Source: Naegleria gruberi (lineage: Eukaryota). From it: a stretch of 64,000 nucleotides of DNA. The notes under the pieces were generated by a model. It made no database searches and had not been told where the DNA came from. It saw only the letters and a list, made by a program, of their open reading frames with translations. Each line of letters starts with the position of its first letter. The stretch's first letter is position 1. Positions 21,105 through 62,048 of the stretch are shown here, in pieces. The DNA is taken from the NCBI GenBank assembly GCA_000004985.1, contig GG738909.1, one strand, 5' to 3'. The translations under genes and the position numbers were made by a program.

Positions 21105-24100
21105 ATGGATATGCGTGGATTGTCAGTGTTCATTTCCGACATTAGAAAATGTTAGTATATTGTTTTTTTGTTGGTTTTTTAACTGGCTTTTGGATATGAT
21201 GTTTTTGTTGTTGTTGTTTAAATATTCTTGTCATTATTAATTATAATCGATCCTGATCGTATTGTTGTATTATAATTACTTCCTTTTCAACAATACCAAT
21301 ACGATATTTAACAATGATTTAACTTGTGGATTATACACTCAACAATAATAATACAATAACAAAATAATAACAACAACAAATACTTGCGCGATGATACAAT
21401 AATTGCTCGCTGCTCTATCCAACACCTCTATTGTTGGTCGTCATCGATAATAACAACAACAAAATTTTTATTAATATTACACAATAATTAACAGCAACTA
21501 CAAAGGAAGAAGAACAATCTAAAGTAGAAAAAGAATTAGCCAAGATCAGAGGTAAATTCAAGAATGGTGGAGCTCTTAAAGGATATGATCGTAAGAAGTA
21601 TATCTGTAAATTGCTCTATATTTACATGCTTGGTTATGAAATTGAATTTGGTCACATTGAAGCCGTCAATTTGTTGGCTTCACCAAATTACTCTGAAAAA
21701 CATATGGGTTATCTTGCTTGTTCATTGTTGTTGAACGAAAATCACGAAATGGTTACACTTATTACCCAATGTATGAAGAATGATTTGAATAGCAAAAATC
21801 CAAATGATCAATGTTTGGCACTTACAGCTATTGCCAACATTGGTGGTAAGGAACAAGCTGAAGCTCTTGCTCACGACGTACAAAAATTGCTCATCTCCAA
21901 CGAAACCAAATTGACTGTCAGAAAAAAGGCTGCTCTTACTCTCTTGAATTTGCATAGAAAATACCCAGAAAGTTTGCCTCCAGATTCTTGGTCCGAAAAG
22001 GTTATTGCTCTTATCAATGGTAGAGATCTTGGTGTTATTACCAGTGTTATGAGTTTAATTTTGGGACTTGCCGAAAAGAATCCAGAAGCTTATCAAGATG
22101 CAGTTTCAAAGACTGCTCGTTTATTGATGAAGTTGGTTTTGAACAGAGAATATTCTACATCATATTTGTACTACAAGATTGCTGCCCCATGGTTGCAAGT
22201 TAAAGCTTTCCAATTACTCCAATACTACCCAGTTCCAGAAGATAAGGCCATCTATGACTCTATCATCCAAGCTATTGAAAAAGTTATTCAAATTGCTAAG
22301 AAATCAAAGGAAACTACATCAAAGAGTGTGAGTCAAATTAATGCTGCTCACAGTGTTCTCTTCGAAGCAATGAATCTTGCTATTCACTACGATTCATCAA
22401 AGACAATCTTGGTGACAGCTTGTTCCATGTTAACTAAATATTTGAAGGATAGAGAAACTAACTTGCGTTATCTTGCTCTTGATACTCTCTCACGTATGGC
22501 TTACTCTCAATTCGATGAAGTTTTGGCTACTATCAGAAAGGAACAAGATACCATTTTACTTGCTTTGAAGGATCCTGATATCAGTATTAGAAGAAGAGCT
22601 CTCGATTTGTTGTACAGTATGTGTAACAGAGATAATGCTGGTGAAATTGTTGGTGAATTGCTCAACTATTTGCCACTTTCCGACTATGCTATCAGAGAAG
22701 AATTGGTTTTGAAGATTGCCATTCTTGCTGAAAAGTTCTCTGTTGATCTCACTTGGTATGTCGATGTTGTTCTCAATTTGATTTCCCAAGCTGGTGACTT
22801 TGTTGCTGATGATATTTGGCACAGAGTTATCCAAATCGTCACAAACAAGGGTGAAGAATTACAAAAGTACACTGCTCAAACTGTTTTCAGTGCTGTTTCT
22901 TCTCCAGCTGCTCATGAAACTTGTGTCAAGATTTCTGGTTACATTTTCGGTGAATTTGGTGACTTGATTGCTGATAATCCTCAAACTGATGCTTTTTCTC
23001 AATATGAATTGATCTTGTCCAAGTTCAACTTGTGTTCAACCACTACTAAGTGTCATTTGTTCAACTCTTTGATGAAGTTGTACAATTTGTATCCTGATAA
23101 CCAAGGACTCCGTGATAATATTAAGGATGTTTTCGAAAAGCACACCAATTCTTTCGATGCTGAATTGCAACAAAGATCTGCTGAATATTTGGCTCTCATC
23201 AATACTGGTGATGAAGATCTTATTCAAGCTGTCATGGATAACATGCCAATGTATCCAGAACGTGACTCTCAAGTCATTAAGAGATTGATGGAAAAAGAAG
23301 CTGCCAAGAAGCGTGGTGCTACTGGTACAGGAAGAGAAAACAACGAAGACGAAGAAGAAGAAAATCCAGATTTGGATGTTCAAGTACCTGAAACCAAACA
23401 AGGTGGAAATGATTTGTTGGATATGCTCGATATGGGTGGTTCTTCAAATAACAATAATGCTGGAGGATATAGTATGGATGACATTTTGGGAGGATTTGGT
23501 GGACCAGTTTCTCAACCACAACCAACTAATAATGGAGGAGGTTTGAGCATGGACGATATTTTGGGAGGATTTGGTGGACCAGTTACTCAACCACCTGTTC
23601 AACAACCACCACAAAACAATGTTGGTGATTTCTTTGGAGGAGGTGTTAACATTGCTGCTCAAGCTGCCAACATGGGTAAGCAAAAGAAGGAACAAAGAGA
23701 TACTACCGGATTCAACTTTGATGATGTTGTAGTTGCTAACAGAGATAATGCTCTTGAACAAAACGAACAAGTCCATCAAGACGCTGCTGTTAAGCATCAA
23801 GTTTTGCTCAAGTCTAACGAAGGTGTTGCCATTGAAGACGAACATTTGCAAGTCAAGATTAAGACTGAATATCACGGATGTAAGGGTAGACTTATTCTCC
23901 TCTATGGTAACAAGACTACTAATCCATTGACTCAATTCAAGGTTCACATTCTCGTTCCAAAGGAATTGGAAGCTCAAATTTCCAAGGTTCCACCAATGAT
24001 TTCACCAAAGACTCAAGTCCAACAATACGTTGACTTGGTTGCTAAGGGCCCATTCAGCCAATTGACTGATTTGGATTTGTACTTTGAAGCTAATCGTAGA

Positions 24101-24502: not shown

Positions 24503-24622
24503 TTTAAATAAACCTAATTTATTTACTTCGTGTAAAAATGATTAATCTATTATTTGAGCTAGCTCCAATTAGACATTTGCAGCCTATTTATTGGAGAGAT
24601 TCTCAACTTTGTTCATAACATT

Positions 24623-24714
24623 TACTCCAAAGTATTATTTGGAGATAGGTAGGCTTCATAACAGAGCTCAAAATAAATTACTCCAAAGTATTATTTGGAG
24701 ATAGGTAGGCTTCT
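24623..24714. repeat. 36-bp direct repeat (ttactccaaagtattatttggagataggtaggcttc) present twice, 20 bp apart. It spans the stop codon and 3' UTR of cyclase copy 1 and is absent from copy 2.
   Basis: Read directly: 24623-24658 is identical to 24679-24714. The homologous 3' end of the paralog at 53225-53290 carries a single copy. Confidence 0.7.
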
Positions 24715-27700
24715 TGATTGATTGTCAAGGTAATATTATCATTGTTTCTTGTTGGTGTTTTGGGTTCATTCAATGTTTCAAGATTTGCAGAATTTTTCTT
24801 TTGTAAAATGTTTAAACTTGTTCTCAACATGTCAGTGAAGGATGGAACAAGAGCTGGAGTGTGATGTTTCTCATGCAACATGTAAGCAATACATTCACCT
24901 TTTCCTTTCACATTTAAATGTCTTTCTTCAAAAGTGAAACCCAAATCATAAACTCTTTCGTAGGTTGATCTGGAAATTTGAATTCTTCCTGGAATTGAAT
25001 TAGATTCCATTCTTGAAGCTGTATTAATTGTATCTCCCCATAAATCCTATTTAATTAAATATTAAGATGAAGTATTGAAAATGTACATGTTAAAATGTTA
25101 AAATGTTGAAATTAAAAACATACATATGCAAATTTCTTCCTCCCAATAACACCTGCAATAACACTTCCAGTATTAATACCAACACGAATATTAATTTGTT
25201 CAGATGGATGTTTTCCTGATTTTGAATTAAATCTTTGTAAAACATCAAATGTATCAATGGAAAATCTCAAAATTCTTTCAGGATGATCTGATTGTGCATT
25301 CAATCCATGTAATCCACCCACACAAAAATATGAATCTCCAATCGTTTTAATCTTTTCCAAATTATACTTGTCTGTCAAATCATCAAATCCAATTACAATT
25401 TCATTCAACATTTGAACCAATTCAGATGCTTGAATTCCAGTACTCAATTTTGTAAATCCCACCATGTCACTAAAAAAACATGAAACATCATTGAATTTCT
25501 CTGCAATATAAGTTTCTCCTGATTTCAATTTACTTGCTACTGCACTTGGTAAAATATTCAATAATAATTCTTCAGAATGTTTCTTTTCTTCTGTCAATAA
25601 TGAATTATGTTTCTTCTCTGTTGTAATATCCTTAATGAAACAAGTTACAACACTTTGAGAATTGTGAAGAGTGGCAAAAATATTGACACGTGATGGGAAG
25701 CTTGTTTGATTCTTTCTGATACATTCCAATTCAATAGAATCTCCTTTCGAATCACCTCTTGCTGCATTCACCAACATTTCATCAATGAGGTTTTTAATTT
25801 TCGATTGCTCATTCTTTTCAAATAATTGATACAATGATCTTCCAATCGTTTCTGTTTGATTGTATCCAAATATCTTTTGAGCTGCTGGATTGAATATTTC
25901 AATATCAACCTTCTCTCCACTGCACATCACTGCTCCATCTACAGATGCATTCAAAATGCTTCGAACTTTTGAGTCACCTTCCCCTAAATTTGACTTCTTT
26001 TTGAGGAGGGAAGACAATGTATTTGGAATATGGTGATGTACAATGTAATTCTTGATATTTTCATTAGAATCCATTAACTCAATTGATAAATAGTTAAAAA
26101 GAAGACGAAGTTGTTGGACAGAGTTGGCATGTTGATGTAAGGACCAACGAATGGCAAGTGAAATGGAGATAATTGCAATAAATCCAACGAAACTGAATGC
26201 GTAGACAAGTTCTTCATCAGTTATGGCAGCATCTTTTGAAAAAACAGTAGAAAAATCAATCAATTGATCTGAAATGGCTCTGGAAAGATGGAAATGTTTA
26301 ACAAACGTTTCGAACAGCTTCAAGTTATTAATTTTTCCGTTTTCATCCATTAGCTCCATTATTTCATTGGAAATTGTGACGAAATTTGTAATCATATCAT
26401 CAATTCCCATAACGCACGAATGATTACCATCTTCTTTAAACATGTCAGTCAATGTACAATTTTCCTGACCTGCCACGAGTAAATTTACATCATCAAATTT
26501 TCCAAGTATGGTATTTTCTGGATTCTCTCCAATGGATGTTCCATAAATACATAAATTCCAATGGTTTTTCAAGTCACTTGATTTTTCAGTAACATAATGC
26601 TTTGGATTGGATGTAAAATTGTATAAATTAGAAACTCTGAAGAAAGCATCATTGTTGGAGCGAAATCCAGATATAATATACTTCTCAGTGATAAAATTAC
26701 TCAAATATTGAATATCTTCAAAAGTTTGGAATGATTCTTTCATAATAACATAGGATCCGTAACATTGATTCACATTTTGTAAAGTTTCCAATAAGAATAG
26801 CCCACAACAAACTGAAACAATTAGAGAGAGAATAAGAGCCAATACAACTACAACACTCCTTGGATATTTCCAAACACTCTTGACTGGATGAGTTGATGTA
26901 TCATCATTGACTACCTTACTCAATTCATGGAATAATCTTCCTGCATCATTTTTTGAAACATTCTTCTCAATGAGAAGAACTATCTTTGTTATAACAGATA
27001 GATCTAACTTAGAGTAGAATACATAAAGAGATGTATAGAGGAAGTAGACTGTCACAATGATGGAAAAGTAAATGATAAAAGTATTAGTAATTAGTTGAGT
27101 TTCATCCTTTGAACTGGAAACAAAATTCACACAAAAATCAGAATAGGCAGTAACCATTCTCTCGGAATTAAAGTACTGCACATGATTAGAATAAAACTCT
27201 AGAACAACTAACTTACCAATAACATAAAGGGATAACTTGACAGAAAACTCTCTAGGTCTGCTAGTCCAAATTTAGAAATAGTTTCAGAGTGTGTATAGAA
27301 TAAATTTGTAATATCTGCAATAGTGGTATTAGTAGTGGTCGAAATGTTATAAACCTTATCGATTTCTGTTGCTGGCCATGAAGTTGGTAAATTGAAAGTG
27401 TAATAAATTTCATGATATTCAGAGTACATTTCCTGTGTGAATTTTCCGTCATGAACCAATTCTCGCACTGATTTCAAAATGTCCCTGTAAGTATTAATGT
27501 GTTCTAACATTTCTTCATGATAATGTTCCAAAGAAGTATATCCATACTTGGACATGACATTCATCCATTCAACCATTGAGTGATTGTACAAATATGTGAT
27601 TGGTTGAAAAGCTCTCATACTAGACATGATCTGAACAGAGGCGCCAACTGGAGCACAAGCTGTTTCCACTATTTTAACAGTGCCTGAAATATAGGATGAG

Positions 27701-30087
27701 AATGAAACACTCAAAGCCAAACTAACACTCAAAAACAAGATGGAAAATAAGACAAATAGAGAGAAGAGGAAAACTTGGAGAGTGTGTCTGTGTGGAAGGC
27801 TCAGTGAAGTTCTGAATACGTTTTCCTTTCTAAATTCTGGATTATTCTCAATTCCATTGAATTCTGGATTGGTTTCTGCCTCTTTCTGATCGCCATAGAA
27901 TGAACTGCTCTCACTTCTAATGTCGTGTTCCTGGAGATGGATACCAATATTTGGGCCTTCTTGTGTTGGAACTATTCTGTTTTTAAACTTGGACTTTTGA
28001 TTCCTCTTCTTTCTTAATTGAGCATTTCTTTTGGTTTCTTCCTCTTCCAAACTTGATGCTTCAGCATACAGCTCTTGAGCAGCATCCTTATTAAACTTGA
28101 ATTCTTCAATGTATTTGGCAAAATTTCGTAATAAATTCTTGTCATTCTTATAAATTGCCAACATGTTCAAAAACTTGGTTTCACATTCATTGGAAATAAT
28201 TCCCATTCTTACAATGATTGATTCAATCTTATCCCTCAAGACACATTCCTGGAGCATTTCCTTCCAGAACATTCTGTGAAGGGCTTTCAATTCATTTTGT
28301 CTCCTTTCGAGAATGAACATTACTTCACTCATTTCTTCAGTATTTTTGGCATTTGGATTAATTTGATGAACTATAATGTCAACTTCCTTCTGTTTCAAAT
28401 AGATGAGGAATCTATACCATGTATTTGGTCTCTTTTTTATGGCTCTCCTTAAAATTCCTTTGGAAAATGTTGTGGCATTGACATCATTTACGAGACAATT
28501 TGATGCTATAGAACTTGATAAGAGAAGAATATCATTATCGAGTTGTGAGTTGAGTGATGATATACCTCTAACAAGAGAAAGAGACATTTTCAGATTGCTC
28601 AACATATTTGGATTGCTGGAAAGAGTTGGATCTTCTTCATCTGTTGGAATCTTTTCCTTAATGGAGAATTTCAAAAAAAGTTTCAGATAATTCAACTTTT
28701 TGGATTCTAGAAAGTATTGGTAAATATTAATGGAATCCTTCTCGATTGCCTTTTCCAGTAAATCAGGGAAACCATTATTAGATTCATTTCTAATACCTTC
28801 AATTACAATAAATCGAACACTTCTAATCAAAATTCTTGTAATCGCCTCCATTACCATCATTCCAACAAAAAAAGAGATGATAATCATTGCCAAAGTCATT
28901 CCAGCTAGACCAATTCCCAGCACATTATCAACTGACTTGTAAATTGCCGAAAGATTTGGATTATTTACAACGCCACTAATTAGAGAACCAAAACTTGAGA
29001 AGATCCTTGCAGATAACACTCCAACCATAATGGAATTCTCAAATCTCTTAAAATATGGAACGTTTTTCGAAAAACCAATCATTAAACCAATCGAAACTAT
29101 CAAATGCACAATCGATCTGATAAATGCATACTGAGGAGGAATCACATAATGTGAAAGAATTTGGAATTGAGTACAAATCATTGTTCCAATAAGGAAAATT
29201 GGATGATCAGAAGTGAATGGAGAAAAGTGTTGGGGATGACAATTCGTCACAATTAATAGAGAAAAACATGATAATATCATTTGAATGATTATTCCAATAA
29301 TCATGATGGCCATGAAGGCAATATTAATAGTTGAATAACATTCAATGTTCTGGTTTGAATATTGTAAAAAACGGTTGAGAACTGAGACAGAACCAAGATT
29401 ACAATCAAGTGGTGTTGTCAATAGGTAAACAGCTGGAAGAGAAACGAGTAGAAAAAGTTTCGAACCAAGGGCCAAACCTTTCTTTGTCCATTTCAAATAT
29501 TGAGAAGTTGTTTTGTAAGCATACACACTCCAAACCAAGTAAACAATAAATAACAGCTCTACAGCTATAACCACAAACGCTAGAGCCAACGAACCTATAT
29601 AAGGTAACCTTTCGAATGATAAAGTCAAAGGATAGTTCAATACAGAAAAAACCCATGTTCCCCACTCTCCGTATTTCATTTCCATTCCAAGATTTGGCAA
29701 GAATATACCAATCCAAAATACATAAGTATGAAATAGTAAACTAATCAAATAGGAATATAGACCTTCTCTTAATTGTGCCTCTTGCATGAAGAATATAAAA
29801 TCCATAAGTTGATTTCTGAGCTTGATTCCAATCGAAATCTCAGAGCCAGTAATATCTGTTGTTGAATATTTGGAATGTTGGGACGAGAAGGATACATTTG
29901 ATGAGCTAGAGGTATGTTGTCCATGAACTGAGGGAATATTCAGATAACTTGTTGGAGTCGTCTGGTTTCTAGCAACGGTTGACCCACGACGTGAAGTACT
30001 AGCAATAGAGATTGAATCCTCTTCTATGGCAATATTGTTGTTGTTAGTATTATTCAATTGATTTATACTAGCATTGGGATGCAACAT
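24678..30087 (-). CDS. Multi-TM, PAS-domain, class III adenylyl/guanylyl cyclase, copy 1; complement(join(24678..25046, 25124..27175, 27217..30087)), about 1763 aa.
   Basis: - Two clusters of TM helices, a PAS-like segment (ILNASVDGAVMCSGEKVDIEIFNPAAQKIFGYNQTETIGRSLYQLF), then the cyclase domain (FSDMVGFTKL, KIKTIGDSYFCVGGL, DLWGDTINTASRMES).
- Intron 27176-27216 (41 nt, GTAAGT..CAG, phase 0).
- Intron 25047-25123 (77 nt, GTATGT..AG, phase 0) splits FAY|DLWGDT.
- Paralogous to 47986-53257. Confidence 0.8.
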
Positions 30088-30563
30088 GTTTTTTTGTAGT
30101 TGTTTTGTTGTAGACTTTCGTTTGGAATGAATCTAAGAATTATTTTCTAATCCATTGTTTGAAACTTTCTGATTTAAACTTGATAGAGAATTTGGATATA
30201 AATAGAAATATTAAGCAGTGTACCGTTAGAATTTAAAATACAATAATGAGCTAGATGTGTTTTCAGGTAATGCACATATACAGATTATGTAATTCTTGAA
30301 GAAGTATTAAATAACTTCATTTAACTTCATTTAGCTAGAATGCTAGCACCATACAATTATACATCAGATTGATTCATTATGAAAACATGTCTGTGTCCAT
30401 TTAAATACAGTTCCCTGTTTGCATTCCGTGCTTGTAATATAATAATAATTACTATCATCATTAGTGATAATTATCACTACATATTCGAAAAATCAGCTGC
30501 CAAGTATCATCTGTAGTTTTTTTTACGTTATTTTTGGTGGGAAATTTTTAGGGAAAGTTTTCT

Positions 30564-32405
30564 GTGGAGGAGTGTGATAAAATTTTCAAAGCAATAGATA
30601 AACCAAATTTATATCTTCTAACAACGTTTCTTAAAAAACCAATAGATATGCAAAGGAAAAGGGACTTGTGGAAGCAATTTGATAACATGATTCAGAAAAT
30701 GTCAATTCAACAAAAGAAAAAAACATCAATTCATATTTGTGGAATTTCATCATTAGGGAAATGTGCCAATACAATTTCCAATCGGCAATGGATTATTTCT
30801 ACTTGGTGAAGAGAAAATCTAGCTTTATTGGAGAAGTACACTTTGAATAATTTATTAAATTCGTGCAGTACTTTTGGAACGTGGGAGGCTGAGTTTATAT
30901 TTCGAAACATTGAGGCACGTGACAAGTTTCATTATTCCTGCTACATCAAAGCTGGATGCACCACAAAAGAATCTGCTTTAAAGCTGGAAGAATTAATTAT
31001 TAATAGTGGATTTTTCAATGATATAATTGTCCAAACAAGCCTCATTTCTATGTTCTCCAAGTGTGGGTTATTAGAAAGGTCTATTGAACTGTTCAACAGC
31101 ATGGAGAAGAAACCAACAGCAAGATGGAATGCAATGCTTTCCGCATACGCACATCACTCTCTTTACAATGAAGTACTACTGTTATTCAGCGAGATGGAGG
31201 AATCTTCAATTGAGACGGACAAGCAAACTTTTAGCTATGCTATTCTAGCCCTATCGAGTCTTGGAAAATCTCACTATCATGCACTAATCAAGGGATGTAT
31301 TAACAGTTCGAATTTCTCAAGCTTTGAATGTTTTAGAGCTGATGAAAAGAAAGCGAATTCCACTAAGCTCTCGAATATTTATATCACTCATGAATGAATG
31401 CATCAAAAGTGGTATTTTGTATGATGCAAAAGTTTTACATCAAGAAATTGTTGAAAATCTACCTTCTTTTTTGTCTGATCCCTTTCTGGTAGTGTCATTA
31501 ATTAATATGCTTGGTTGTTTCAATCAGTCCCAGGCAGTATTGGATGTTTTTGGTGGGTACAATGGACAAGATGTGGCCGTGTTAAATGTTACATTGTCAG
31601 CTCTTTACAAGGATGGTTTAATTCATAATGCTCTCAATCTATTCTATGAAAATACGAAAAATTACAAGTTTGATGAAAAAACATTTACAATTATTTTAAC
31701 AATGTGCAAAGACATGCAAAACGACGATAGTGTAAAGGGTCAACAATATTTTGAAATGATGAAACAATATGAAGTTGAACCAAATATCTTCCATTATACA
31801 TGTCTTATCAAGTGTTTTCTCTCAGAAAAGCAATTTGAAAGGGCTCTGGATATTCTCTTTGATATTCATTTGAAAGGAATTCTAATTGATGATGCTTGCT
31901 TTAACTCTTCCGGGGGGTCTCTTTAAATCATGATCATTATGAAAATTACAATGGAATTGCATCAAATAATCATCACGATGAAGGAAACTTTTCATTCTTC
32001 TTTTATTGATTTCTGTGCCCAGTACAGTATGAGAGAATTGGCTGGTAGAGTTCACATATAATGAAAGATTTTGGACATAAACCAAATATACAACTCTTCA
32101 ATATGCTAAATATGTACTTGAATGTTGGAAATTTTGAAAAAGCTCTAGAACTGTATAAAGAATTAAGAAATCAAGCCAATATTATCACTTGCAACATTCT
32201 CATATCTGGATTAACTTTGAATGGGCAGGGTAAAGAAGCTATTAGGATATTCAAAGAAATGAATATAGCCCCTAATGGCACCACATTTGCTGCAGTGTTG
32301 AATGCATGTAGTCATTGTGGATTAATTAAGGAAGGATTTCAAATCTATGAAAGTATGCAAACAAATCATGGTATTGAACCAGATGGTCGGACTTTTAATG
32401 TTTGA
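30564..32405 (+). pseudogene. Plant-type PLS-class pentatricopeptide repeat (PPR) gene, degraded: in-frame TGA, at least two frameshifts and a C-terminal truncation.
   Basis: - PLS-style repeats: LISMFSKCGLLERSIELFNSMEKKPTARWNAMLSAYAHHSLYNEVLLLFSEMEESSIETDKQTFSYAILAL and ITCNILISGLTLNGQGKEAIRIFKEMNIAPNGTTFAAVLNACSHCGLIKEGFQIYESMQTNHGIEPDGRTFN.
- In-frame TGA at 30807-30809.
- Frame-3 to frame-1 shift at about 31311-31320, and a further shift between 31926 and 32061.
- The ORF ends at 32405, where the duplicated coiled-coil segment begins, with no E/DYW extension. Confidence 0.6.
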
Positions 32406-32430
32406 CAACCAACCTACATTAAAAGTTATT

Positions 32431-33898
32431 GTAACCTTACAAAAAAACTATTATTGGAGAGATGGTGAACTTTGCTATTGTGGTAATTTCCCGCACTTTC
32501 TATTTTCATTTTTCAACAACAAAAAAAACAAATCAAACAATTATTTAAATAATAATCTAAAACAATTGATAAGAAAGAAAATGTGTACTAATAATAATAA
32601 TAATAATACTCTCACTGGTAAATTAATCATGAGAAAGAACAAGGAAGAAAGTATTGAAAAGGTTTTCCAATTAATTAATTTCGGAGGCTTGAATGAATCT
32701 GTTAGAGAATTTGTTCAAGATTTGTCATCTGCTACTTCTTCTGATGAAGTGTTATTATCCACTTTCAAGATCAAGGCTATTGTTCCATCTTCTGAGAAGA
32801 GAAAAACAATTTATATAATTAATAATGAAAATGATTTTTCTGAAATGATGAAATTAATTCAAGAAATTCCACAAGATAAACCAATTCTTTTCAGAGTAAT
32901 GAAGAAGAAATTGAATCATGAAAAGAAGGAAAGAAAGGAAAAGAAAGAAAGAAAGGTCAAACTTCAATTGACTGAAGAACAATCTCAAAGTCTTTCCGAA
33001 AAGAAGCAACAAGTTGAATTATTGAAAGATGAAATTAAGATGAAGAAGGAACAAATCAAGACTATCAAATTTGAAATGAAATCTTTGAGAAAGTCATTCC
33101 ATCATGTCAATGTTAGCATTGACTCAAATGTTCCATCTACTATTAAGTCATCTCCAAACAAGGAAGAAAGACTTAAACTCAAACTTGAAAAGAAGGAAGA
33201 AAAGAAAGCTTTCAAATTGGAAAAGAAGTTACTCAAAGCTCAATACAAGCTTGAAAAGATTGCATTGAAGAAGCAAAGAAAGCAACAAGGAAATACTTCT
33301 ACTCAACCAGAAACTGTTTCAACTACCACAACTTCTAGTGAACCAACTGTTCCAATTAACGTACCTATTGTTGAACCAGTAATTGTTACTGTACCACCAG
33401 TTCAACAAGTAACAACTGAACCAGTTTCCAACAATGATGAGATTGTCACTCCAACTGTTGATGCAAGGCTCTTGTTGAAACTCCAAAAAAAGGAACAAAA
33501 GCATGCTTTGAAAATGGAAAAGAAACTTGAAAAACAAATAATCAAAGCTCAAAGAAAATTGGAGAAACAAGGTCAAAAGCAAGAGAGAAAGGAAAGAAAA
33601 TTGTTAGAAAAGCAACAAGTTACCACTCCTTCTCAAAATTAATATTAGTTTAGAATAATTTTAACAACTATCATCAGAGAACTATTCATCAATCGTAATT
33701 TCTCCCTCCACATTTGTTGTGTCTGAGAGAATGAATTGTGAAATAGATTTTACTGAGATAGTTTAATTGCACCAGTCAATCATGATATAGCTGGATTTAA
33801 GGATCATGAAACAAATCTAAACAATATCTTGTAAATAACAAAATAAATCAATGTTACACAATTGTATGGCAAGTTTTCTATTTATTGTGGGACTATTG
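32431..33898. repeat. Segmental duplicate B, left arm. The inverted partner is 62227-63690, at about 95-97% nucleotide identity.
   Basis: Partial aligned comparison of the 5' flank, coding sequence and 3' flank. The coiled-coil proteins differ at about 16 of 355 residues, plus a poly-Asn length difference (N6 vs N8). Confidence 0.8.
32581..33642 (+). CDS. Lys/Glu-rich coiled-coil protein, copy 1 (353 aa).
   Basis: ATG at 32581. Poly-Asn tract, a globular N-terminal region and long K/E-rich heptad-like repeats (KLEKKEEKKAFKLEKKLLKAQYKLEK...). A nearly identical inverted copy lies at 62488-63555. Confidence 0.6.
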   Translation: MCTNNNNNNTLTGKLIMRKNKEESIEKVFQLINFGGLNESVREFVQDLSSATSSDEVLLSTFKIKAIVPSSEKRKTIYIINNENDFSEMMKLIQEIPQDKPILFRVMKKKLNHEKKERKEKKERKVKLQLTEEQSQSLSEKKQQVELLKDEIKMKKEQIKTIKFEMKSLRKSFHHVNVSIDSNVPSTIKSSPNKEERLKLKLEKKEEKKAFKLEKKLLKAQYKLEKIALKKQRKQQGNTSTQPETVSTTTTSSEPTVPINVPIVEPVIVTVPPVQQVTTEPVSNNDEIVTPTVDARLLLKLQKKEQKHALKMEKKLEKQIIKAQRKLEKQGQKQERKERKLLEKQQVTTPSQN

Positions 33899-33998: not shown

Positions 33999-34119
33999 GG
34001 CTACGGCCATATCACGATGAATGCACCTCATCCCGTCCGATTTGAGAAGTTAAGCATCGTCGAGCCACATCAGTACTGAGGTTGGAGACAACTTGGGAAC
34101 CTGTGGTGCTGTAGTCTTT
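33999..34119 (+). rRNA. 5S: 5S ribosomal RNA gene (solitary).
   Basis: GGCTACGGCCATATCACGATGAATGCACCTCATCCCGTCCGATTTGAGAAGTTAAGCATCGTCGAGCC...GGGAACCTGTGGTGCTGTAGTC matches the universal eukaryotic 5S pattern (GCCTACGGCCATACC...CCCGTCCGATCTG..GAAGTTAAGC...GGGAA...GGTGCTGTAGGC). About 120 nt. Confidence 0.85.
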
Positions 34120-41972: not shown

Positions 41973-42044
41973 TCCCGTGTAGTCCAATGGCTAGGATACC
42001 TGGCTTTCACCCAGGAGGTCCGGGTTCAATTCCCGGCATGGGAG
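41973..42044 (+). tRNA. tRNA-Glu (anticodon TTC).
   Basis: TCCCGTGTAGTCCAATGGCTAGGATACCTGGCTTTCACCCAGGAGGTCCGGGTTCAATTCCCGGCATGGGA folds as a cloverleaf. The 7-bp acceptor stem has one G-U pair and the anticodon loop is CTTTCAC. No encoded CCA. T-runs follow at 42051-42060. Confidence 0.85.
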
Positions 42045-47985: not shown

Positions 47986-50900
47986 ATGACATCTCTCAAT
48001 GTTAATGTGTTTGACGATAGAGGTTCAAACAGTTCTCAAAGTAATTCGAGGGTGCTGCTCTCTCCACCTCAGGGAGCCAACAATTACTTACTAATTCCAA
48101 CCAGTAACTATGCAGGATCATCAGTATGTTCCTCTGACAGACATTCCAAAACTGACATTTCAGGTTCTGAAGTTAATGCGGTAACAAAACTGAAGAACTC
48201 GACTTTGGAGTTTGTACTCTTCATACAAGACAACCAAGTGAAGGAGGGAATCTATGGTTATGTGATAACCTTGTTGATTCACTTGTACATGTTTTGGATT
48301 GGAATTTTTCTACCAAATCTTGGACCAGAAATGATGTACGGAGATTGGGGAACATGGATTTTCTCAGTACTCAACTATGCTATTACTCTCTCATTTGAAA
48401 GGATCCCTTATAAGGGAGGTATTGTATTGGCTTTTATTGGAGTAGGTATTGTATTGGTATTTGTAATTCTATTGATCTGGACAATCTTTGCCTACAAGAC
48501 AACCTCCCAACATTTAAAGAACTCGAGAAGAGCTATTGCCATCTTTTCCAAAGTATTTCCATTCATATCAGTACCTCTCTTGTACTTGATGACATTCTCT
48601 CTTGATTGTAATTATACAGTAAGCTCATCAAATCTGAATAGATTTGAATTCTATTCCCATGAGGTGATCCAATGCCACGATACTAGCAATATTATATTTG
48701 TGGTGGTAATGATCTTGGCCATCCTGTTATTGATTATACTCAATGTATTCTCCATGCTCATTGTACCAAACTGCCATCCTCAAAATATAGCTCCATTTGT
48801 GACCGATAATCCAGTTTTCATGAGCTTGTTAGTTGCCTTCAATCTGTGGCAACTCTTTTTACACTTTATCATTCCAACACAATACTCTTTTATGAGAGCT
48901 ATTGTTCATAGTGTTGGATCTATTATTTTAATTATAATTTTTGCCAAGCTGATTCCATTCATTAGAAGAATTGAGAATAGTATTGTATTTGGTTGCCTGT
49001 TGGCTAGATTAGCTTCGAGTATTGGAGCTATTGTAACTTCTATTGTAAATAACCCATCCCTATCAAAGATACTGCCATCGGTGGATAATACACTTGGTGT
49101 TGGACTTGCAGGTCTAACTATTGGTTTGATTATTATTGGTTTTGTGCTTGGTTTCTCCCTTATGGAATTGTATACGAGATTTATTGTGAGATCTATTAGA
49201 AACTTTGTTCTGGAATGTATTCAATCAGATAATGATGAAACAAATCTAGATTCCAAAGAAACTGAAAAATACATTGAGAAAGAAGCACAAATTATTTATC
49301 AACAGTTGGTTGAGTCAAGAAAATTAAGGCACCTTAGAATATTCTTTAAATTTTCTATGAAATTCAAAGAAAAATATCCAACGGAAAAATCAGAAACGCC
49401 CACACAGCACAATCTACTCGATATTTATATTTGTATTGCTCTGATTAAGGGGTTCTCTTCCAATAACCAATTAGATAATGAGATTATCCTTCTCTCTAGT
49501 ATGATTATTGCAAATTATTTGCCAAACGAGGTCAATTCTACAACATTTGCTCAAGGACTTTTGAAGAAAGCTTTTAAAAGAAGACCATCCACTTACTATA
49601 ATTTATTAATTAGTCTAGCTCAAAAACAAGTAGAAGCAACGGTCTATCAAACCAATCCAGAGAGCAGAAACAATGTTGAAATGGCCAAGCTTATTGGTCA
49701 CTTAGAAAGAAGACAGGATGAATTACGAGCACTTCACAGAGCTTTCTGGAAGGAAATCATGCAAGAAAATATCAATCATGAAAAATGTGAATCTATTATT
49801 GTAAGGATTGGGATATTGTCTCATGAATGTGAAACTAAATTCAAGAATTTAATGCACATTTACAAAAACGACAAGACAGTTCTTCGATGTGTTGCTAAAT
49901 ATGTAGAATCTTTTAAATTCAATAAGGAAGCTGCTCAGGAATTATATTCTGAAGCAACAACAATTGAAGAAGAGGATTCCAAACGAATGAATGCCTCCTC
50001 TAAAAGAAGAATTAAAAAGAACCAAAAGAACAGAGTGCATCCTCAACAAATCAGTCACGCTTTTGAGACGTTATCTTATGGTGATGCTAATCATCATGAG
50101 GTAGAGTCCACTGTTGTAGGAGATTTGAATAACGATTTTGGTGGTGTTGAGAATAATCCAGAATTGAAGAAGGAGCTTCTGTTCAGGAATGCATTGGCCA
50201 TCTCACATAAGAATCATTCACATCTCACAATGTTTTTCATTTTCATTGTGCTATCCTTGCTAATTTTGGTTTCAACATTAGTAATGAGCTTGATGTTTTC
50301 GAATTATGTTACTGAGAGCGTACTTGTTGTGGATACTGCCTGTACACCGATTGCATCTGCTATTCGAATTGTTAGTGGAACAAGAAGTTATCAGAGCTCT
50401 CTATTGTTGTACAGTTCCAATTCATCAGCTTGGCCTTCATTATTGGCAGAATATGGCTACTCGAGCCTTTCTGAATTCAAGAAAGCTCACAAGAAAGAGC
50501 TAAGGGATAATATTGATTACTTAATTCTATTGAAAGAGCTAGCACAAACAGCCAAGTTTACCACTGATATGTACTCTGAATTTCATGAATACTACTATAG
50601 CTTTAATCAACCAAAGGCAAATACTAATGGTTTGGAAAAGATTTACAACTCTACCACAGCTATCAATATTACCATTGCAGATATTACTAATTTGGCTATA
50701 ACCTATTCAGAGCAGATTTACAAATTTGAAGATGAGGATTATCTACATACTTTCAGCAGTTATCCTTTCATGATACTATTCAACAATAGGAATATTATGA
50801 CAGCAGCTTATTCTTCATTCTGTTACAAATTTGTTGAGGAATCCAAGAGCTATACCAAGACGATTTCCAATACTTTTATTATTTACTACTCTTGCTCAAT

Positions 50901-53257
50901 TGTTGTTTATTTTACTTACACTGCTATTTATTTGTGCTTTGCAAGATTGGATTTGTCTTTTTTGAAAAAGCTTATTGTTTTATTGGAAAAGAATGTGTCA
51001 AAGCATGAAGCAGGAAAAATGTATCACAATTTGGGCAAGCTAGTCCAAGATGACAGCTCTGTAAGACCGGCCAAGAACTCTGCTTTATACCCTAGGAATG
51101 TTGTGGTAGGATTGGGAATTGTGACAGCAATCTGTGTTGCACTCTGTGCTGGTTTGTTCCTAGCTCAAACTCTCAGCAATTCTCAATACAGCTTTGAGTC
51201 CTATGTCACCATGAGGGATGCTTTCAATGCATTAGAAAACTCCCAATATATTGCAGAAGCGATAACTGAGGAATTCATTAATTTAAAAATTGCTGACAAA
51301 ACATTTATTAATGGATTGGTTTCATCTAATACTGAGCGTTCTGAATCTATTCAAGCATCAATTAAGAAATTAAGATTCTATTGGAATATGTGCATGTATG
51401 GGTCTAATTATTACCCAGATGAGACTCTTGTGATTGGTCTTTTCGAAAAGACTGATTTGATGATAAAGGGAGAAGCTAATTGTACATTTGAAAAGATGAT
51501 TTCACATAATTGCAGCATTGGTGTTGATAAATTGATCACAACTTACACGACTAAAGCCACACAACTCACAGAAGATATTGATCTCAAATCAACAACATTT
51601 GAATCATTATTTGATGACTATTTGGTAGTTAGTTTTTTCTCTACCTATGTAAGCAATTCATTACTGTCATTTTCAGATGTATTTGCTATGGCTGCCTCTG
51701 TTCCATCAGACAAGTTGGTGATTCCATTTGCCATTCTTGGATTTTTGACTTTGTTTATATTCTCGATTGGTATTTACATGTCAATGGGAAAGTATTTCAA
51801 TTCAGTCCAACAACTGCGTCTTCTTTTCAATTATCTACCTCTAGACTTGATGGACTCAAACGAAAATATTAAGAATTATATTGTACATCATCATCTTCCT
51901 GACTCATTCTCAAACATTTTTAGAAGAAAGAAAGGTTCTTCATCAGAGGGCGACTCAAAAGTTCGAAGCATTTTGAACGCATCTGTAGATGGAGCAGTGA
52001 TGTGCAGTGGAGAGAAGGTTGATATTGAAATATTCAATCCAGCAGCTCAAAAGATATTTGGATATAATCAAACAGAAACGATTGGCAGATCATTGTATCA
52101 ATTATTTGAAAAGAATGAGCAATCGAAAATTAAAAACCTCATTGATGAAATGTTAGTGAATGCAGCAAGAGGTGATTCGAAAGGAGATTCTATTGAATTG
52201 GAATGTATCAGAAAGAATCAAACAAGCTTCCCATCACGTGTCAATATTTTTGCCACTCTTCACAATTCTCAAAGTGTTGTCACTTGTTTCATTAAGGATA
52301 TTACAACAGAGAAGAAGCATAATTCATTATTGACAGAAGAAAAGAAACATTCTGAAGAATTATTATTGAATATTTTACCAAGTGCAGTGGCAAGTAAATT
52401 GAAATCAGGAGAAACTTATATTGCAGAGAAATTCAATGATGTTTCATGTTTTTTTAGTGACATGGTTGGATTTACAAAATTAAGTACTGGAATTCAAGCA
52501 TCTGAATTGGTTCAAATGTTGAATGAAATTGTAATTGGATTTGATGATTTGACAGACAAATATAATTTGGAAAAGATTAAAACGATTGGAGATTCATATT
52601 TTTGTGTGGGTGGATTACATGGATTAAATGCACAATCAGATCATCCTGAAAGAATTTTGAGATTTTCCATTGATACATTTGATGTTTTACAAAGATTTAA
52701 TTCAAAATCAGGAAAACAACCATCTGAACAAATTAATATTCGTGTTGGTATTAATACTGGAAGTGTTATTGCAGGTGTTATTGGGAGGAAGAAATTTGCC
52801 TATGTATGTTTTTAATTTCAACATTTTAACATTTTATTGTGTAAATTGTACATTTTCAATATTTCATATTAATATATTAATTAAATAGGATTTATGGGGA
52901 GATACAATTAATACAGCTTCAAGAATGGAATCTAATTCAATTCCAGGAAGAATTCAAATTTCCAGATCAACCTATGAAAGAGTTTATGATTTGGGTTTCA
53001 CTTTTGAAGAAAGACATTTAAATGTGAAAGGAAAGGGTGAATGTATTGCTTACATGTTGCATGAGAAACATCACACTCCAGCTCTTGTTCCATCCTTCAC
53101 TGACATGTTGAGAACAAGTTTAAACATTTTACAAAAGAAAAATTCTGCAAATCTTGAAACATTGAATGAACCCAAAACACCAACAAGAAACAATGATAAT
53201 ATTACCTTGACAATCAATCAAGAAGCCTACCTATCTCCAAATAATACTTTGGAGTAA
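47986..53257 (+). CDS. Multi-TM, PAS-domain, class III adenylyl/guanylyl cyclase, copy 2; join(47986..52803, 52889..53257), about 1728 aa.
   Basis: Same architecture as copy 1. Intron GTATGT at 52804, acceptor AG at 52887-52888 (85 nt), splitting FAY|DLWGDTINTASRMES. There is no intron at the position of the copy-1 41-nt intron. Confidence 0.8.
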
Positions 53258-53840
53258 TTTATTTTGAGCTCTGTTATGAACAAAGATGAGTTCTAAATGA
53301 AAGACCTCCAGTGAATAGGCTTGCCAAACGAGGTGCAAGATTAAGCAACAAATCCCAAAATGAGAATTGATTGTGTTTACACTCCGTAATTCACATCAGC
53401 GGTGTTGCTCAGTTTGGAAGAAATTCAAATGGTTCATATTGAGATATTTCACTTTGATAGTTTGATAGGGATGAGTATATTCTGTATTGACTTAATAAAT
53501 TGTAGTTAACCATCAGTTTACTTCACAATAAAGATGTGTAAGTGTATTAATGTCTCTTGTATCAAAAACGACCTGAGAGACCACACTTTTCGGCATTTAA
53601 GGACTCTGTGCAACATTTGAATGATTTGGGTTAAGATTGAGTGCCTAAAGTAGGCAGTTTACTTCACATAATACGCACTTCTAGTTGCTTTCATGTGTTT
53701 CAGAGTAATAAGACGGTGCCATTTTCTGTTGTTCCAACTAAAGAATTTTTCACCACTGTCACATGCAAACCGCCCTCTATGAGAAAACTAATCTTATCAT
53801 ACGTAATTAGTCAACCAATTACTTTCCATCTCATAAAAAA

Positions 53841-59786: not shown

Positions 59787-60700
59787 GTGAATTCAAATGA
59801 CAAATTTTCCATTATTAGAGATGCTCTAGATGTTGTTATTCAATACAAGAGAATGAAAAGTTTATCCAGACTGACATCCTTCCTTAATGAAACTAAATTG
59901 ATTGATATAAAAACACACCTATTACGATTATTATTCAACAAGAATCGCGTGTTTGATTTTCGAGAAATAGACTCTGAGTTGGAAAGCACCAATCATTCCT
60001 ATACTTATTCACAAGCATTCATTGAACACTCAATTGCCCATGTTTCGAAATTATGGTTGATGATATGTGGCAATTCATGTCATATGAGTTTAAAGGAACT
60101 GGTGAGGAATTTGAATTGTTCATGGGTATGCTTCTCCTACACGAAAGTACATCATTGAAAGGACAATCCTTTACAAAAAGTCCACTATTTAAAAGTATAA
60201 CAAACTCAACGTTGAACCTAGAATTGGAAGAATGGTCAATCAACATAAAAAGCTTGCTACATGATAGAAATCTCTCAAAGATAACACTTCAAATCACAGT
60301 TGGTAATAGGTTCACTCAATTGGCAAACAATTATTTTAGAAATTCTTTTATAAAACCATATGATGAAGCATGTCCAGATGGAATGTTTTATTTAAAACAT
60401 CATCAAGAAGAAAAGTATCAATTGGTAATATGTGCCATGACCTTAATTGCTGATCCTGTTACTGACAGGCTACAACCAGATAAGGCTCTCAATTTGCTCA
60501 AAACATTAGTTCTCTACTCTGGAAAAGATGAATCAGAAATTCACACAGAAAACTCTGCTATTGGATGGATTATTGCTCCAAATATGGATGCAAATACGAT
60601 CAGTCTAACAAATTTGCGAAATTTAAAGCAAACACCAACATCTCAAGCTCTATCTTCACTTGAAAATGGTTCTTTGAAATTAATGGTTACAGAGCTCTAG
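59787..60700 (+). CDS. Hypothetical protein in two overlapping frames (apparent frameshift near 60026-60052).
   Basis: Two same-strand ORFs overlap in different frames. No motif is recognised and no intron candidate was identified. Probably one gene with an indel, or two small genes. Confidence 0.3.
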
Positions 60701-60743
60701 TAACAATACAATTACCTTGTATTATGTTTCGAATAATCAAATT

Positions 60744-62048
60744 TTATTTAGTTTTTAAAGATTGTGAAAATGATTTGGTGTCTTCGGTTGAAATAACAGT
60801 CAATCTTCTATCAGTAGCAAACACTTGTGTTCCAGCATTAATAGGAATCTTGAATTCAACTCTAGGACTTACTGAACTATCGCCTGTTTTGAAGATGACC
60901 ATCCCAGTATCACACACCACAGCAAACTTTTCATCATCTACCAAACTAATGTGATTCGAACAATTTTTTGCATTATTTCCAGTAACATAGCTCAAATTAA
61001 TTTCATAAGATTTTGAAATATGAATTCCCTTAATAGAATAACTATATACGAATGGTGGTGAGTTTCTTGCTTTACACATAAAACTAAACGTCTGCGGGGT
61101 AGAAACAATGTTGGAACAATCATTCAAATCAATTGGAACTCCAAATTGATCTATTAAGGCAATAGATGAAGACTTGCCACCTGTATCCATAACACGACGT
61201 GCACTATAATTGACAATCATGTAAGATTTTGGTCCTTTTTGAATAGTAGCAACCAGAGTATTGTCGTAATAAGTTAAGGCAAAGTATTCTTGTCTTCCCT
61301 CAACATGGAACGTATCATTAACCGAATACCACAGGGATCCAGTTGCAGCACTAAATTGATAACCAAAAGCTTTACAAAATACGTGAATGTAATCCTCAAA
61401 AAGGAAGAGTTTAACATGTCCATTAAAATCTCTGTAATGTTCCCAAAGTTGTACACCTGTATCAGAGTTGTAACATATGAGAAGATTATTATTTACGACA
61501 GCAATTCCATTTCTTCCAGATTTAACAAGAATCATTCCATAGATAGTGGAATAACTTCTAGAGGTTGTGAAACTAAAGTGAGTACCATTCAATACGGAAG
61601 TTCTCAAAATAAAGTCCATATTTGTCTTGGGATTTCTTCTCACTGTGAAATAGTAATTGCCCTCTTGTTGATACAGTGGTGAGATCTCCTTAACTAATTC
61701 TCCTTCCTCTGAAGATGGAAATTGAACGATTGGTAACAAGGTTCCATTTACAAGATCAATAGCAATCAAGAAATCCATTCCAGTGGCAATATTATTGGCC
61801 ATTCCATATAGTTGCTTGCTTAATGGATCCATCACGACAGAACGTGGGAGAATTCTCCAACCGAGATGAGCAGTTTGATAGACAGTAGATGTTGCATCAT
61901 CTCTAACATATCGACTTCTCCACATGTTTCCATCAGGCATGGCCCAACTATCATCTAAACTAGCACCATAATCAAGGCACCAAATTCCCTCAATCAAGAC
62001 GAAAAAGCTAAGCAAACAAATAGTGAATGAAAACGGTGAGTTTTTCAT
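60744..62048 (-). CDS. Secreted hypothetical protein (434 aa) with an N-terminal signal peptide.
   Basis: MKNSPFSFTICLLSFFVLIEGIWC is signal-like. The long single-exon ORF is rich in beta-type residues. Function unknown. Confidence 0.45.
   Translation of the reverse strand: MKNSPFSFTICLLSFFVLIEGIWCLDYGASLDDSWAMPDGNMWRSRYVRDDATSTVYQTAHLGWRILPRSVVMDPLSKQLYGMANNIATGMDFLIAIDLVNGTLLPIVQFPSSEEGELVKEISPLYQQEGNYYFTVRRNPKTNMDFILRTSVLNGTHFSFTTSRSYSTIYGMILVKSGRNGIAVVNNNLLICYNSDTGVQLWEHYRDFNGHVKLFLFEDYIHVFCKAFGYQFSAATGSLWYSVNDTFHVEGRQEYFALTYYDNTLVATIQKGPKSYMIVNYSARRVMDTGGKSSSIALIDQFGVPIDLNDCSNIVSTPQTFSFMCKARNSPPFVYSYSIKGIHISKSYEINLSYVTGNNAKNCSNHISLVDDEKFAVVCDTGMVIFKTGDSSVSPRVEFKIPINAGTQVFATDRRLTVISTEDTKSFSQSLKTK

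What the first reader, a model, noticed from the sequence alone, without database searches (positions are those of the whole stretch)
51948..53295. Sharp switch from diverged to near-identical sequence between the two cyclase paralogs (gene conversion tract or chimeric assembly)
The two inverted cyclase genes (24678-30087 minus; 47986-53257 plus) are only about 60% identical in protein over the N-terminal TM region. They diverge right up to ...VHHHIPNTLSSLLKKKSNLGE versus ...VHHHLPDSFSNIFRRKKGSSSE.

From GDSKVRSIL to the stop they are identical except for one residue (H to Q). Nucleotide identity is about 97-98% over roughly 1.35 kb (left 24640-25982; right 51948-53295), including the last intron and the 3' UTR.

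This is the signature of a recent gene-conversion or ectopic-recombination tract between old paralogs, or of a collapsed or chimeric assembly of two copies.
Basis: seen in the sequence. Interest (0 to 1): 0.7.

Follow-up and report, generated by a model that had tools for sequence, protein, structure and literature searches.

The report
Gene-conversion tract between two Naegleria cyclase genes
Two anciently diverged, oppositely oriented membrane adenylyl-cyclase genes of the amoeba Naegleria gruberi share a 1.33-kb, 98% identical 3' end covering the PAS sensor and catalytic domain, which is a real example of gene conversion between paralogs and not an assembly error.

Summary
The window is Naegleria gruberi. 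cycL (NAEGRDRAFT_73946, minus strand, 30087-24678) and cycR (NAEGRDRAFT_81665, plus strand, 47986-53257) are 45% identical in protein, with saturated synonymous sites, over about 1,300 N-terminal codons.

Within about 6 bp (51946-51952 on the right, 25981-25975 on the left) identity jumps to 98.5%. This holds for 1,329 bp, to 53280 / 24655. The tract covers the whole PAS plus class III cyclase module, its intron, the stop codon and 23 nt of 3' UTR.

Neutral divergence inside the tract is about 0.06 (dS 0.058; intron 6.5%). Coding differences are 14 synonymous to 1 non-synonymous, so the two copies are distinct, selected sequences and not a collapsed consensus.

An independent Illumina metagenome contig from another N. 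gruberi strain (L001) crosses the left junction at the same breakpoint. No independent sequence covers the right junction.

The best explanation is DNA-level interlocus gene conversion between old inverted paralogs, at least as old as the common ancestor of the two strains' haplotypes.

New context: a third near-identical module exists on a 14-kb scaffold (NAEGRDRAFT_54669), and a second, unrelated 1.5-kb inverted repeat pair of similar age lies in the same window.

This is a known kind of event and of modest interest.

The parts
51952..53280 (+). High-identity tract, right copy. It covers the PAS domain, the class III cyclase domain, an 85-nt intron, the stop codon and 23 nt of 3' UTR of cycR.
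   Evidence: 1301 of 1329 columns are identical to the left copy. dS 0.058, dN 0.001. Pfam places PAS at residues 1326-1440 and Guanylate_cyc at 1480-1664.
24655..25975 (-). High-identity tract, left copy (3' end of cycL).
   Evidence: Alignments. The same tract and the same 5' breakpoint are present in the independent contig L001.
47986..53257 (+). cycR gene (NAEGRDRAFT_81665). Exons 47986-52803 and 52889-53257, 1728 aa. Architecture: TmcB-like multi-pass membrane region, TPR_TmcB, PAS, cyclase.
   Evidence: Gene model. Pfam. Identified as P0001 / EFC38254. The deposited 1609-aa model reads into the intron and lacks the last exon.
24678..30087 (-). cycL gene (NAEGRDRAFT_73946). Exons 30087-27217, 27175-25124 and 25046-24678, 1763 aa.
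   Evidence: Gene model. It has the same length as P0126 / EFC38290.
52804..52888 (+). Intron inside the tract, right copy, 85 nt, GT..AG. It splits KFAY|DLWGD.
   Evidence: Against the left intron it shows 5 mismatches and 2 indels totalling 8 nt (6.5% substitutions), matching dS.
25047..25123 (-). Intron inside the tract, left copy, 77 nt.
   Evidence: The retained intron excludes an mRNA-mediated copy.
51896..51951 (+). Divergent linker immediately 5' of the tract. The breakpoint lies at its 3' edge, at 51946-51952.
   Evidence: 50% identity. The shared Glu-Gly codons differ at both third positions (GAG GGC versus GAA GGT).
51798..51895 (+). Conserved juxtamembrane block (SVQQLRLLFNYL...NYIVHHH), 81% nucleotide identity. 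It is not part of the tract.
   Evidence: dS is saturated (15 synonymous differences over 19.7 sites) and dN is 0.05, so this is amino-acid-level conservation only.
24615..24657 (-). Left-copy-only 43-bp insertion at the 3' edge of the tract. It is a second copy of the last 36 nt of the CDS including the stop, followed by ATGTTAT. It may be a repair scar.
   Evidence: The 36-nt unit is found at 24678-24713 and 24622-24657, and only once in the right copy (53222).

Best explanation
cycL and cycR are old paralogs of a Naegleria gruberi family of receptor-type adenylyl cyclases. Each has a TmcB-like membrane/TPR N-terminus, a PAS domain and a class III catalytic domain. The two genes lie in inverted orientation, and their tract copies are about 26 kb apart.

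**Shown.**
- A DNA-level, non-reciprocal homologous-repair event (interlocus gene conversion) overwrote the 3' 1.33 kb of one gene with the sequence of the other, or of a third copy.
- The replaced segment is the whole PAS plus cyclase output module, its intron, the stop codon and the first 23 nt of 3' UTR.
- The N-terminal sensor/membrane part was left untouched.
- The copies have since accumulated about 6% neutral divergence under strong purifying selection (dN/dS about 0.02), so both are functional genes.

**Inferred.**
- The event is at least as old as the common ancestor of the two sampled strains' haplotypes at this locus, because the other strain's cycL carries the tract with the same breakpoint.
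- cycL may have been the recipient, because it alone carries a 43-bp duplication scar at the 3' edge of the tract. I put this at about 40%.
- The last 245 bp, which are perfectly identical, may be a younger second patch.
For: - **Abrupt switch.** Identity goes from 50% to 98.5% within about 6 bp and falls back to about 40% after 53280.
- **Silent sites.** dS is saturated upstream and 0.058 in the tract. The intron is homogenised too, at 6.5%.
- **Expected identity without conversion.** Module identity to the next full-length paralog, NAEGRDRAFT_74138, is 62.6%, while N-termini are 33-45% identical. Unconverted L and R modules should therefore be far from 99.8%.
- **Real substitutions.** 14 synonymous to 1 non-synonymous, P = 3e-9.
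- **Intact genes.** Both reading frames and splice sites are intact.
- **Independent contig.** MEGAHIT contig L001 (ENA ERZ929261) is 98.8% identical to the left locus and runs from unique upstream sequence 1.1 kb into the tract. It has 9 private differences in the tract, so it comes from a different strain.
- **Catalytic residues.** The residues aligned to the mammalian AC C2 domain (EKIKTIGD, YDLWGD, NTASRME) are present.
- **Repair machinery.** Homologous-recombination and mismatch-repair genes are reported for Naegleria (PMC9928731).
Against: - No independent sequence covers the right junction. No ortholog of cycR was found in any database source.
- Homology just upstream of the 5' breakpoint is poor. 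The longest exact match in 430 bp is 11 bp. The 3' breakpoint lies in the UTR. Classical homology-guided resolution at these ends is therefore not obvious, and a microhomology or template-switch mechanism is possible.
- The direction of transfer and the number of events are unresolved, because no outgroup was found.
- A third copy (P0006) could be the true donor, and its DNA could not be retrieved.
- In the tract, L, R and the other strain's L are equidistant (dS 0.068 each). The simple tree ((L,M),R) is therefore not recovered.
Confidence: 0.8

Rival explanations
1. Assembly artefact. A single real module, or two, was collapsed or wrongly joined to the upstream halves of two different genes.
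For: - The tract (1.33 kb) is longer than a Sanger read.
- At least three near-identical copies exist in the assembly, one on a small 14-kb scaffold. This is the situation in which flanks can be mis-paired.
- The right junction lacks independent support.
Against: - The copies are not identical. They differ at 20 substitutions, 2 intron indels and a left-only 43-bp duplication.
- The differences are 14:1 synonymous, which is incompatible with sequencing error.
- Both frames run through the junctions.
- The left junction was reassembled independently from another sample and strain.
- Inference: a junction between unique and repeated sequence must exist within individual reads and cannot be created by mis-joining repeats.
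Confidence: 0.03
2. Non-homologous copy-and-paste, that is partial duplication or domain shuffling. A roughly 1.3-kb DNA segment carrying the module was duplicated and inserted by microhomology or template switching. It replaced or created the 3' end of one gene, without homology-guided conversion between the two paralogs.
For: - Both breakpoints lie in sequence with little homology (linker 50% identical; 3' UTR).
- There is a left-only duplication scar with TGTTATGAA microhomology at the 3' edge.
- A third copy is annotated as a stand-alone 390-aa gene.
- An unrelated 1.49-kb whole-gene segment (32423-33898 / 63716-62227) was copied to a non-homologous site, in inverted orientation, at a similar age (dS 0.050).
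Against: - The replacement is exactly in frame and at the homologous position where other family members also begin their PAS-cyclase module (P0129, P0007). This requires precise removal of the old module.
- Weak residual similarity continues about 50-100 nt beyond the 3' edge (z = 5.6). That fits pre-existing homology there.
Confidence: 0.12
3. Ongoing concerted evolution. The module is kept similar in three or more loci by repeated short conversion patches, not by one old event.
For: - There is a third copy differing by 1-2 residues.
- L, R and the other strain's L form a star tree.
- The terminal 245 bp are perfectly identical (P about 0.011).
- There is residual similarity in the 3' flank.
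Against: - The 20 differences are spread evenly over the first 1.08 kb, with no long identical blocks. The longest identical run is 126 bp.
- The star tree and the higher L-M divergence in the tract fall within the large locus-to-locus variation in strain divergence (dS 0.018-0.147).
Confidence: 0.2
4. Extreme purifying selection or codon constraint on the PAS-cyclase module, with no recombination.
For: The module is the most conserved part of the family (62.6% versus 33-36% to NAEGRDRAFT_74138).
Against: - Synonymous sites and the intron are homogenised too (dS 0.058 against saturation upstream; intron 93.5% identical).
- The strongly conserved juxtamembrane block shows what selection alone produces: 78% amino-acid identity with saturated dS.
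Confidence: 0.005

Closest known systems
Classical interlocus (non-allelic) gene conversion between duplicated genes, for example the human fetal gamma-globin pair, RHD/RHCE and CYP21A2/CYP21A1P (from general knowledge, not tested here)
   Same: - Sharp identity boundary inside paralogous genes.
- Introns and silent sites are homogenised.
- Flanks stay diverged.
- The tract is on the kilobase scale.
   Different: - The partners here are inverted and about 26 kb apart.
- Outside the tract they are very old (dS saturated, 45% amino-acid identity).
- The tract coincides with a complete functional module and runs past the stop codon.
Arm-to-arm conversion between intrachromosomal inverted repeats, for example the palindromes of the human Y chromosome (from general knowledge)
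   Same: - Inverted orientation on one chromosome.
- Conversion without loss of the intervening DNA.
- Crossover would invert the spacer and not delete it.
   Different: - Only 1.3 kb is homogenised.
- It lies inside otherwise diverged genes and is not part of a long palindrome.
- No evidence of continuing homogenisation was obtained.
Naegleria gruberi alpha-tubulin gene family
   Same: Same organism. [quoted passage not shown] That is multi-copy genes kept similar at separate loci.
   Different: There, whole genes are similar. Here, only the 3' module of two otherwise diverged genes is. No mechanism was shown in either case.
Receptor-type class III adenylyl cyclases with variable sensor domains and a conserved catalytic domain, for example trypanosome ESAG4/GRESAG4 (from general knowledge) and mammalian AC C2 domains
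   Same: - Membrane or sensor N-terminus plus a class III catalytic domain.
- The aligned residues EKIKTIGD, YDLWGD and NTASRME match AC8 C2.
- Pfam Guanylate_cyc E = 8e-54.
   Different: - The N-terminus is TmcB-like (PF25474), with a PAS domain before the cyclase.
- There is a single catalytic domain, so a homodimer is expected.
- Enzyme activity has not been tested.

Membership tests
Interlocus gene-conversion tract | Abrupt, not gradual, change of paralog identity inside a homologous gene | tested here: met
   Identity goes from 50% to 98.5% within about 6 bp at 51946-51952, and from 100% to about 40% at 53280.
Interlocus gene-conversion tract | Silent sites and introns are homogenised, so the identity is not due to selection | tested here: met
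   dS is 0.058 in the tract and saturated upstream. The intron has 6.5% substitutions.
Interlocus gene-conversion tract | Flanks on both sides remain anciently diverged, so this is not a segmental duplication | tested here: met
   Upstream dN is 0.49 with dS saturated. The downstream flank is about 40% identical, with only weak residual similarity.
Interlocus gene-conversion tract | Both junctions exist on single DNA molecules | tested here: inconclusive
   The left junction is spanned by independent contig L001. The right junction is seen only in this assembly, and no other source holds cycR.
Interlocus gene-conversion tract | Non-reciprocal transfer with an identifiable donor and recipient | not testable with these tools
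   No outgroup was found. N. lovaniensis and another Naegleria species lack a cyclase at the syntenic site. The only hint is the left-copy scar.
Interlocus gene-conversion tract | The tract genealogy conflicts with the flank genealogy | tested here: inconclusive
   The flank groups L with the other strain's L (dS 0.018). In the tract, L, R and M are equidistant (dS 0.068 each). Strain divergence is itself very uneven (0.018-0.147).
Assembly collapse or chimera | Copies are identical, or differ only by error-like, randomly placed changes | tested here: not met
   20 substitutions, of which 15 are in coding sequence, split 14 synonymous to 1 non-synonymous (P = 3e-9), plus structured indels.
Retroposed (mRNA-derived) partial copy | Loss of introns in the copied segment | tested here: not met
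   Both copies keep the intron at KFAY|DLWGD.
Class III adenylyl cyclase (protein family of the tract) | Guanylate_cyc domain with metal-binding Asp residues, substrate Lys/Asp and transition-state Asn/Arg motifs | tested here: met
   Pfam PF00211, E = 7.8e-54. The alignment to AC8 C2 shows FSDMVGFT, EKIKTIGD, YDLWGD and NTASRME. Activity and substrate were not tested.

The most novel reading that the evidence does not exclude
The PAS-cyclase module is a shared 'output cassette'. It is kept near-identical at three or more loci by recurrent exchange because receptors with different sensor N-termini must dimerise through identical catalytic and PAS domains.

In addition, the 1.3-kb inverted copies may mediate a reversible inversion of the roughly 26-kb segment between the tract copies. 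That inversion would swap which N-terminal half sits next to which 3' flank.
Probability: 0.1. Interest if true: 0.55.

Novelty: new member of a known kind. Interest (0 to 1): 0.3.

Why it matters
- **Family evolution.** In the large Naegleria cyclase family, sensor and output parts of a receptor can have separate histories. Domain-level trees of these genes will mislead unless tracts like this one are masked.
- **Annotation.** It flags two errors or ambiguities in the reference genome: the cycR model lacks its last exon, and there is a third module copy on a small scaffold.
- **Possible inversion.** The inverted 1.3-kb repeats are a plausible substrate for a 26-kb inversion polymorphism.
- **Scope.** None of this changes a general principle. 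Interlocus conversion is well known.

Tried and rejected
1. **Older conversion in the 81% block.** I asked whether 51798-51895 is an older conversion tract. Rejected: its dS is saturated.
2. **Excess strain divergence in the tract.** L versus the other strain has dS 0.068 in the tract and 0.018 upstream (Fisher P = 5e-4). I first read this as later exchanges. Withdrawn after a control: neighbouring genes in the same two strains range from dS 0.033 to 0.147.
3. **Shared V-to-I change.** I briefly read the V-to-I change in the other strain and in the third copy as the same site, which would have been a four-gamete signal. They are adjacent codons, SQSVI versus SQSIV, so this is no evidence of recombination.
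4. **One large inverted duplication.** Rejected. The order of the two repeat pairs is A, B, A', B' and not mirrored, and the spacers are unrelated.
5. **Third copy as a haplotig.** I asked whether the 14-kb scaffold is a haplotig of either 3' flank. No second N. gruberi copy was found of the genes at 60053-62048 or of alpha-adaptin.
6. **Retrieving N. gruberi DNA for the third copy or for other assemblies.** Exact look-ups failed. JGI metagenome scans found only bacterial relatives at 48% identity or less.
7. **Outgroup by synteny.** There is no cyclase next to adaptin in N. lovaniensis or in another Naegleria contig.
8. **Literature.** A search for the metagenome project PRJEB11402 found nothing.

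Full report
**Source and genes**

The window is Naegleria gruberi. The ORF at 47986-52815 is identical to 'predicted protein [Naegleria gruberi]' EFC38254 / NAEGRDRAFT_81665, on a 250,472-bp scaffold. The left gene is EFC38290 / NAEGRDRAFT_73946.

My gene models are as follows:

| Gene | Strand | Exons | Introns | Length |
|---|---|---|---|---|
| cycR | plus | 47986-52803, 52889-53257 | one | 1728 aa |
| cycL | minus | 30087-27217, 27175-25124, 25046-24678 | 41 nt and 77 nt | 1763 aa |

The cycL model has the same length as the deposited protein. The deposited cycR model (1609 aa) reads into the intron and lacks the last exon.

Pfam gives TPR_TmcB (residues 564-666), PAS (1326-1440) and Guanylate_cyc (1480-1664, E = 8e-54). 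The catalytic domain aligns to mammalian adenylyl cyclase C2 domains. The motifs FSDMVGFT, EKIKTIGD, YDLWGD and NTASRME are present. From these motifs I infer a homodimeric class III adenylyl cyclase.

**Checking the observation**

Self-BLAST gives the inverted match 24655-26126 / 53280-51798. Windowed and base-by-base alignments show the following along the right copy:

| Right-copy segment | Nucleotide identity |
|---|---|
| 51500-51797 | 43-48% |
| 51798-51895 | 81% |
| 51896-51951 (linker) | 50% |
| 51952-53280 | 1301 of 1329 columns (20 mismatches, 8 gap columns) |
| beyond 53280 | about 40% |

- The Glu-Gly codons just before the tract differ at both third positions (GAG GGC versus GAA GGT). 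This places the 5' breakpoint within 51946-51952.
- The proteins differ by one residue (H/Q) across 405 codons.
Its 'about 60% protein identity' for the N-terminus is too high; the measured value is 45%.
- Only 23 nt of the 3' UTR are shared.

**Selection or recombination**

Nei-Gojobori estimates:

| Region | dS | dN |
|---|---|---|
| Tract | 0.058 (14 synonymous changes) | 0.001 (1 non-synonymous change) |
| Upstream of the tract | saturated | 0.49 |
| Conserved 81% block (51798-51895) | saturated | 0.05 |

- The conserved 81% block therefore shows what selection alone produces.
- The intron inside the tract has 6.5% substitutions plus two indels, which agrees with dS.
- The module of the next full-length paralog, NAEGRDRAFT_74138, is only 62.6% identical to the tract protein. 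N-termini in the family are 33-45% identical.
- The near-identity is therefore a DNA-level homogenisation of about 6% neutral age. The retained intron excludes an mRNA intermediate.

**Artefact or real**

- The 14:1 synonymous bias has P = 3e-9 under random placement. The differences are evolutionary substitutions in two separately evolving, selected copies.
- An independent contig, L001, is 98.8% identical to 24852-30400. It is 6,104 bp long and comes from ENA metagenome ERZ929261 (run ERR1078381, MEGAHIT, final k = 127).
- L001 runs from cycL-unique sequence across the breakpoint for 1.1 kb.
- It carries 9 private differences in the tract, so it derives from another strain.
- It ends inside the stretch where L and R become identical for 245 bp. 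Before that stretch, no L/R identical run exceeds 126 bp. This fits a cleanly resolved path that stops where the copies merge.
- The left junction and its breakpoint are therefore real and shared by two strains.
- No ortholog of cycR is present in any searched source, so the right junction rests on the reference assembly alone.
- By inference, a boundary between unique and repeated sequence must lie within real reads. What an assembler could get wrong is the pairing of distal flanks.

**Age and genealogy**

- Over the 348 codons covered by all three sequences, L-R, L-M and R-M each give dS 0.068. This is a star tree.
- Upstream, L-M dS is 0.018. I first took that contrast as evidence of later exchanges.
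- Two other contigs of the same metagenome give dS 0.147 and 0.033 for adjacent genes at 11.4-13.9 kb. Strain divergence is therefore very uneven, and the contrast is not informative.
- The safe statement is that the event is at least as old as the common ancestor of the two strains' haplotypes at this locus.
- The terminal 245 bp (53036-53280) have no difference at all (P about 0.011). This may be a younger patch.

**Breakpoint anatomy**

- Upstream of the 5' breakpoint, the longest exact L/R match in 430 bp is 11 bp.
- At the 3' edge, cycL alone carries a 43-bp insertion at 24657-24615. It repeats the last 36 nt of the CDS and a truncated UTR, and it is bounded by TGTTATGAA microhomology.
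- Beyond it, weak similarity persists for about 50-100 nt (z = 5.6 against shuffles).
- This suggests, but does not prove, that cycL was the repaired (recipient) copy and that some homology pre-existed in the 3' flank.

**Additional context**

- A third copy of the module exists: NAEGRDRAFT_54669, a 390-aa model on a 14,026-bp scaffold. It differs from cycR by one residue and from cycL by two.
- Genes flanking either tract have no second N. gruberi copy. The third copy is therefore probably a separate locus and not a haplotig. Its DNA could not be retrieved.
- The window also holds a second, unrelated inverted repeat pair, 32423-33898 / 63716-62227. It carries a whole gene for a Lys/Glu-rich protein of 353 aa (left copy) and 355 aa (right copy), with its flanks, at dS 0.050 and dN 0.018.
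- The junction of that pair at 62227 is also present in the other strain (L047).
- The order of the two pairs is A, B, A', B'. They are therefore not parts of one mirrored duplication.

**Comparison and verdict**

This is a textbook-type interlocus gene-conversion tract (confidence 0.8). Three features are notable:
- It coincides with a complete signalling-output module.
- The partner genes are otherwise saturated in divergence.
- The copies are inverted, so they could mediate inversion of the 26-kb spacer.

The rivals rank as follows: a non-homologous copy-and-paste origin (0.12), continuing multi-copy concerted evolution as a refinement of the main explanation (0.2), and an assembly artefact (0.03). 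Pure selection is excluded.

Naegleria is reported to have the recombination and mismatch-repair genes needed, and to be mainly a heterozygous diploid with about 81 cyclases (PMC9928731). Its alpha-tubulin genes are another dispersed, 'exceptionally similar' family (PMC2115128 abstract).

Novelty: a new member of a known kind. Interest: 0.3.

Noticed in passing
32423-33898 (+) and 63716-62227 (-): A second inverted repeat pair of 1.49 kb with sharp ends. It carries a whole gene for a Lys/Glu-rich protein of 353 aa (left copy) and 355 aa (right copy), plus about 160 bp upstream and 255 bp downstream. dS is 0.050 and dN 0.018, a similar age to the cyclase tract. The flanks are unrelated. Contig L047 from the other strain spans the 62227 boundary.
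   Followed up: partly
not in the window: NAEGRDRAFT_54669 (EFC35924), 14,026-bp scaffold: A third near-identical copy of the PAS-cyclase module, annotated as a stand-alone 390-aa protein that starts 17 codons into the tract. It differs from cycR by one residue. Its DNA was not retrievable.
   Followed up: partly
52804-53257: The deposited cycR protein model (EFC38254, 1609 aa) reads through the GT..AG intron to a stop. It omits the last exon (122 aa), which contains the DLWGD...NTASRME catalytic motifs.
   Followed up: yes
24615-24713 (-): Imperfect tandem duplication just after the cycL stop codon. The last 36 nt of the CDS are repeated, and it is absent from cycR. It may be a repair scar marking the 3' edge of the tract.
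   Followed up: partly
53036-53280 / 24899-24655: The last 245 bp of the tract have no L/R difference, although about 4.5 are expected (P about 0.011). This may be a younger nested conversion patch.
   Followed up: partly
33999-34117 (+); 41973-42044 (+): A 5S rRNA gene (Rfam 105 bits) lies 100 bp beyond the end of the left copy of the second repeat. A tRNA-Glu(TTC) lies further on.
   Followed up: yes
30552-31532; and beyond 11435: Structural differences between the reference and the metagenome strain. L001 lacks about 1 kb that in the window lies within a PPR-repeat gene region. L046 loses similarity to the window beyond 11435.
   Followed up: no
11437-13920 versus 25973-30087: Synonymous divergence between the reference and the metagenome strain varies about eight-fold between nearby genes (0.147, 0.033, 0.018). 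This suggests recombination among diverged haplotypes in the population.
   Followed up: partly
23450-23594 (+): A tandem repeat of about 71 bp (86% identical) inside the alpha-adaptin hinge region. It encodes the repeated GGLSMDDILGGFGGPV motif.
   Followed up: no
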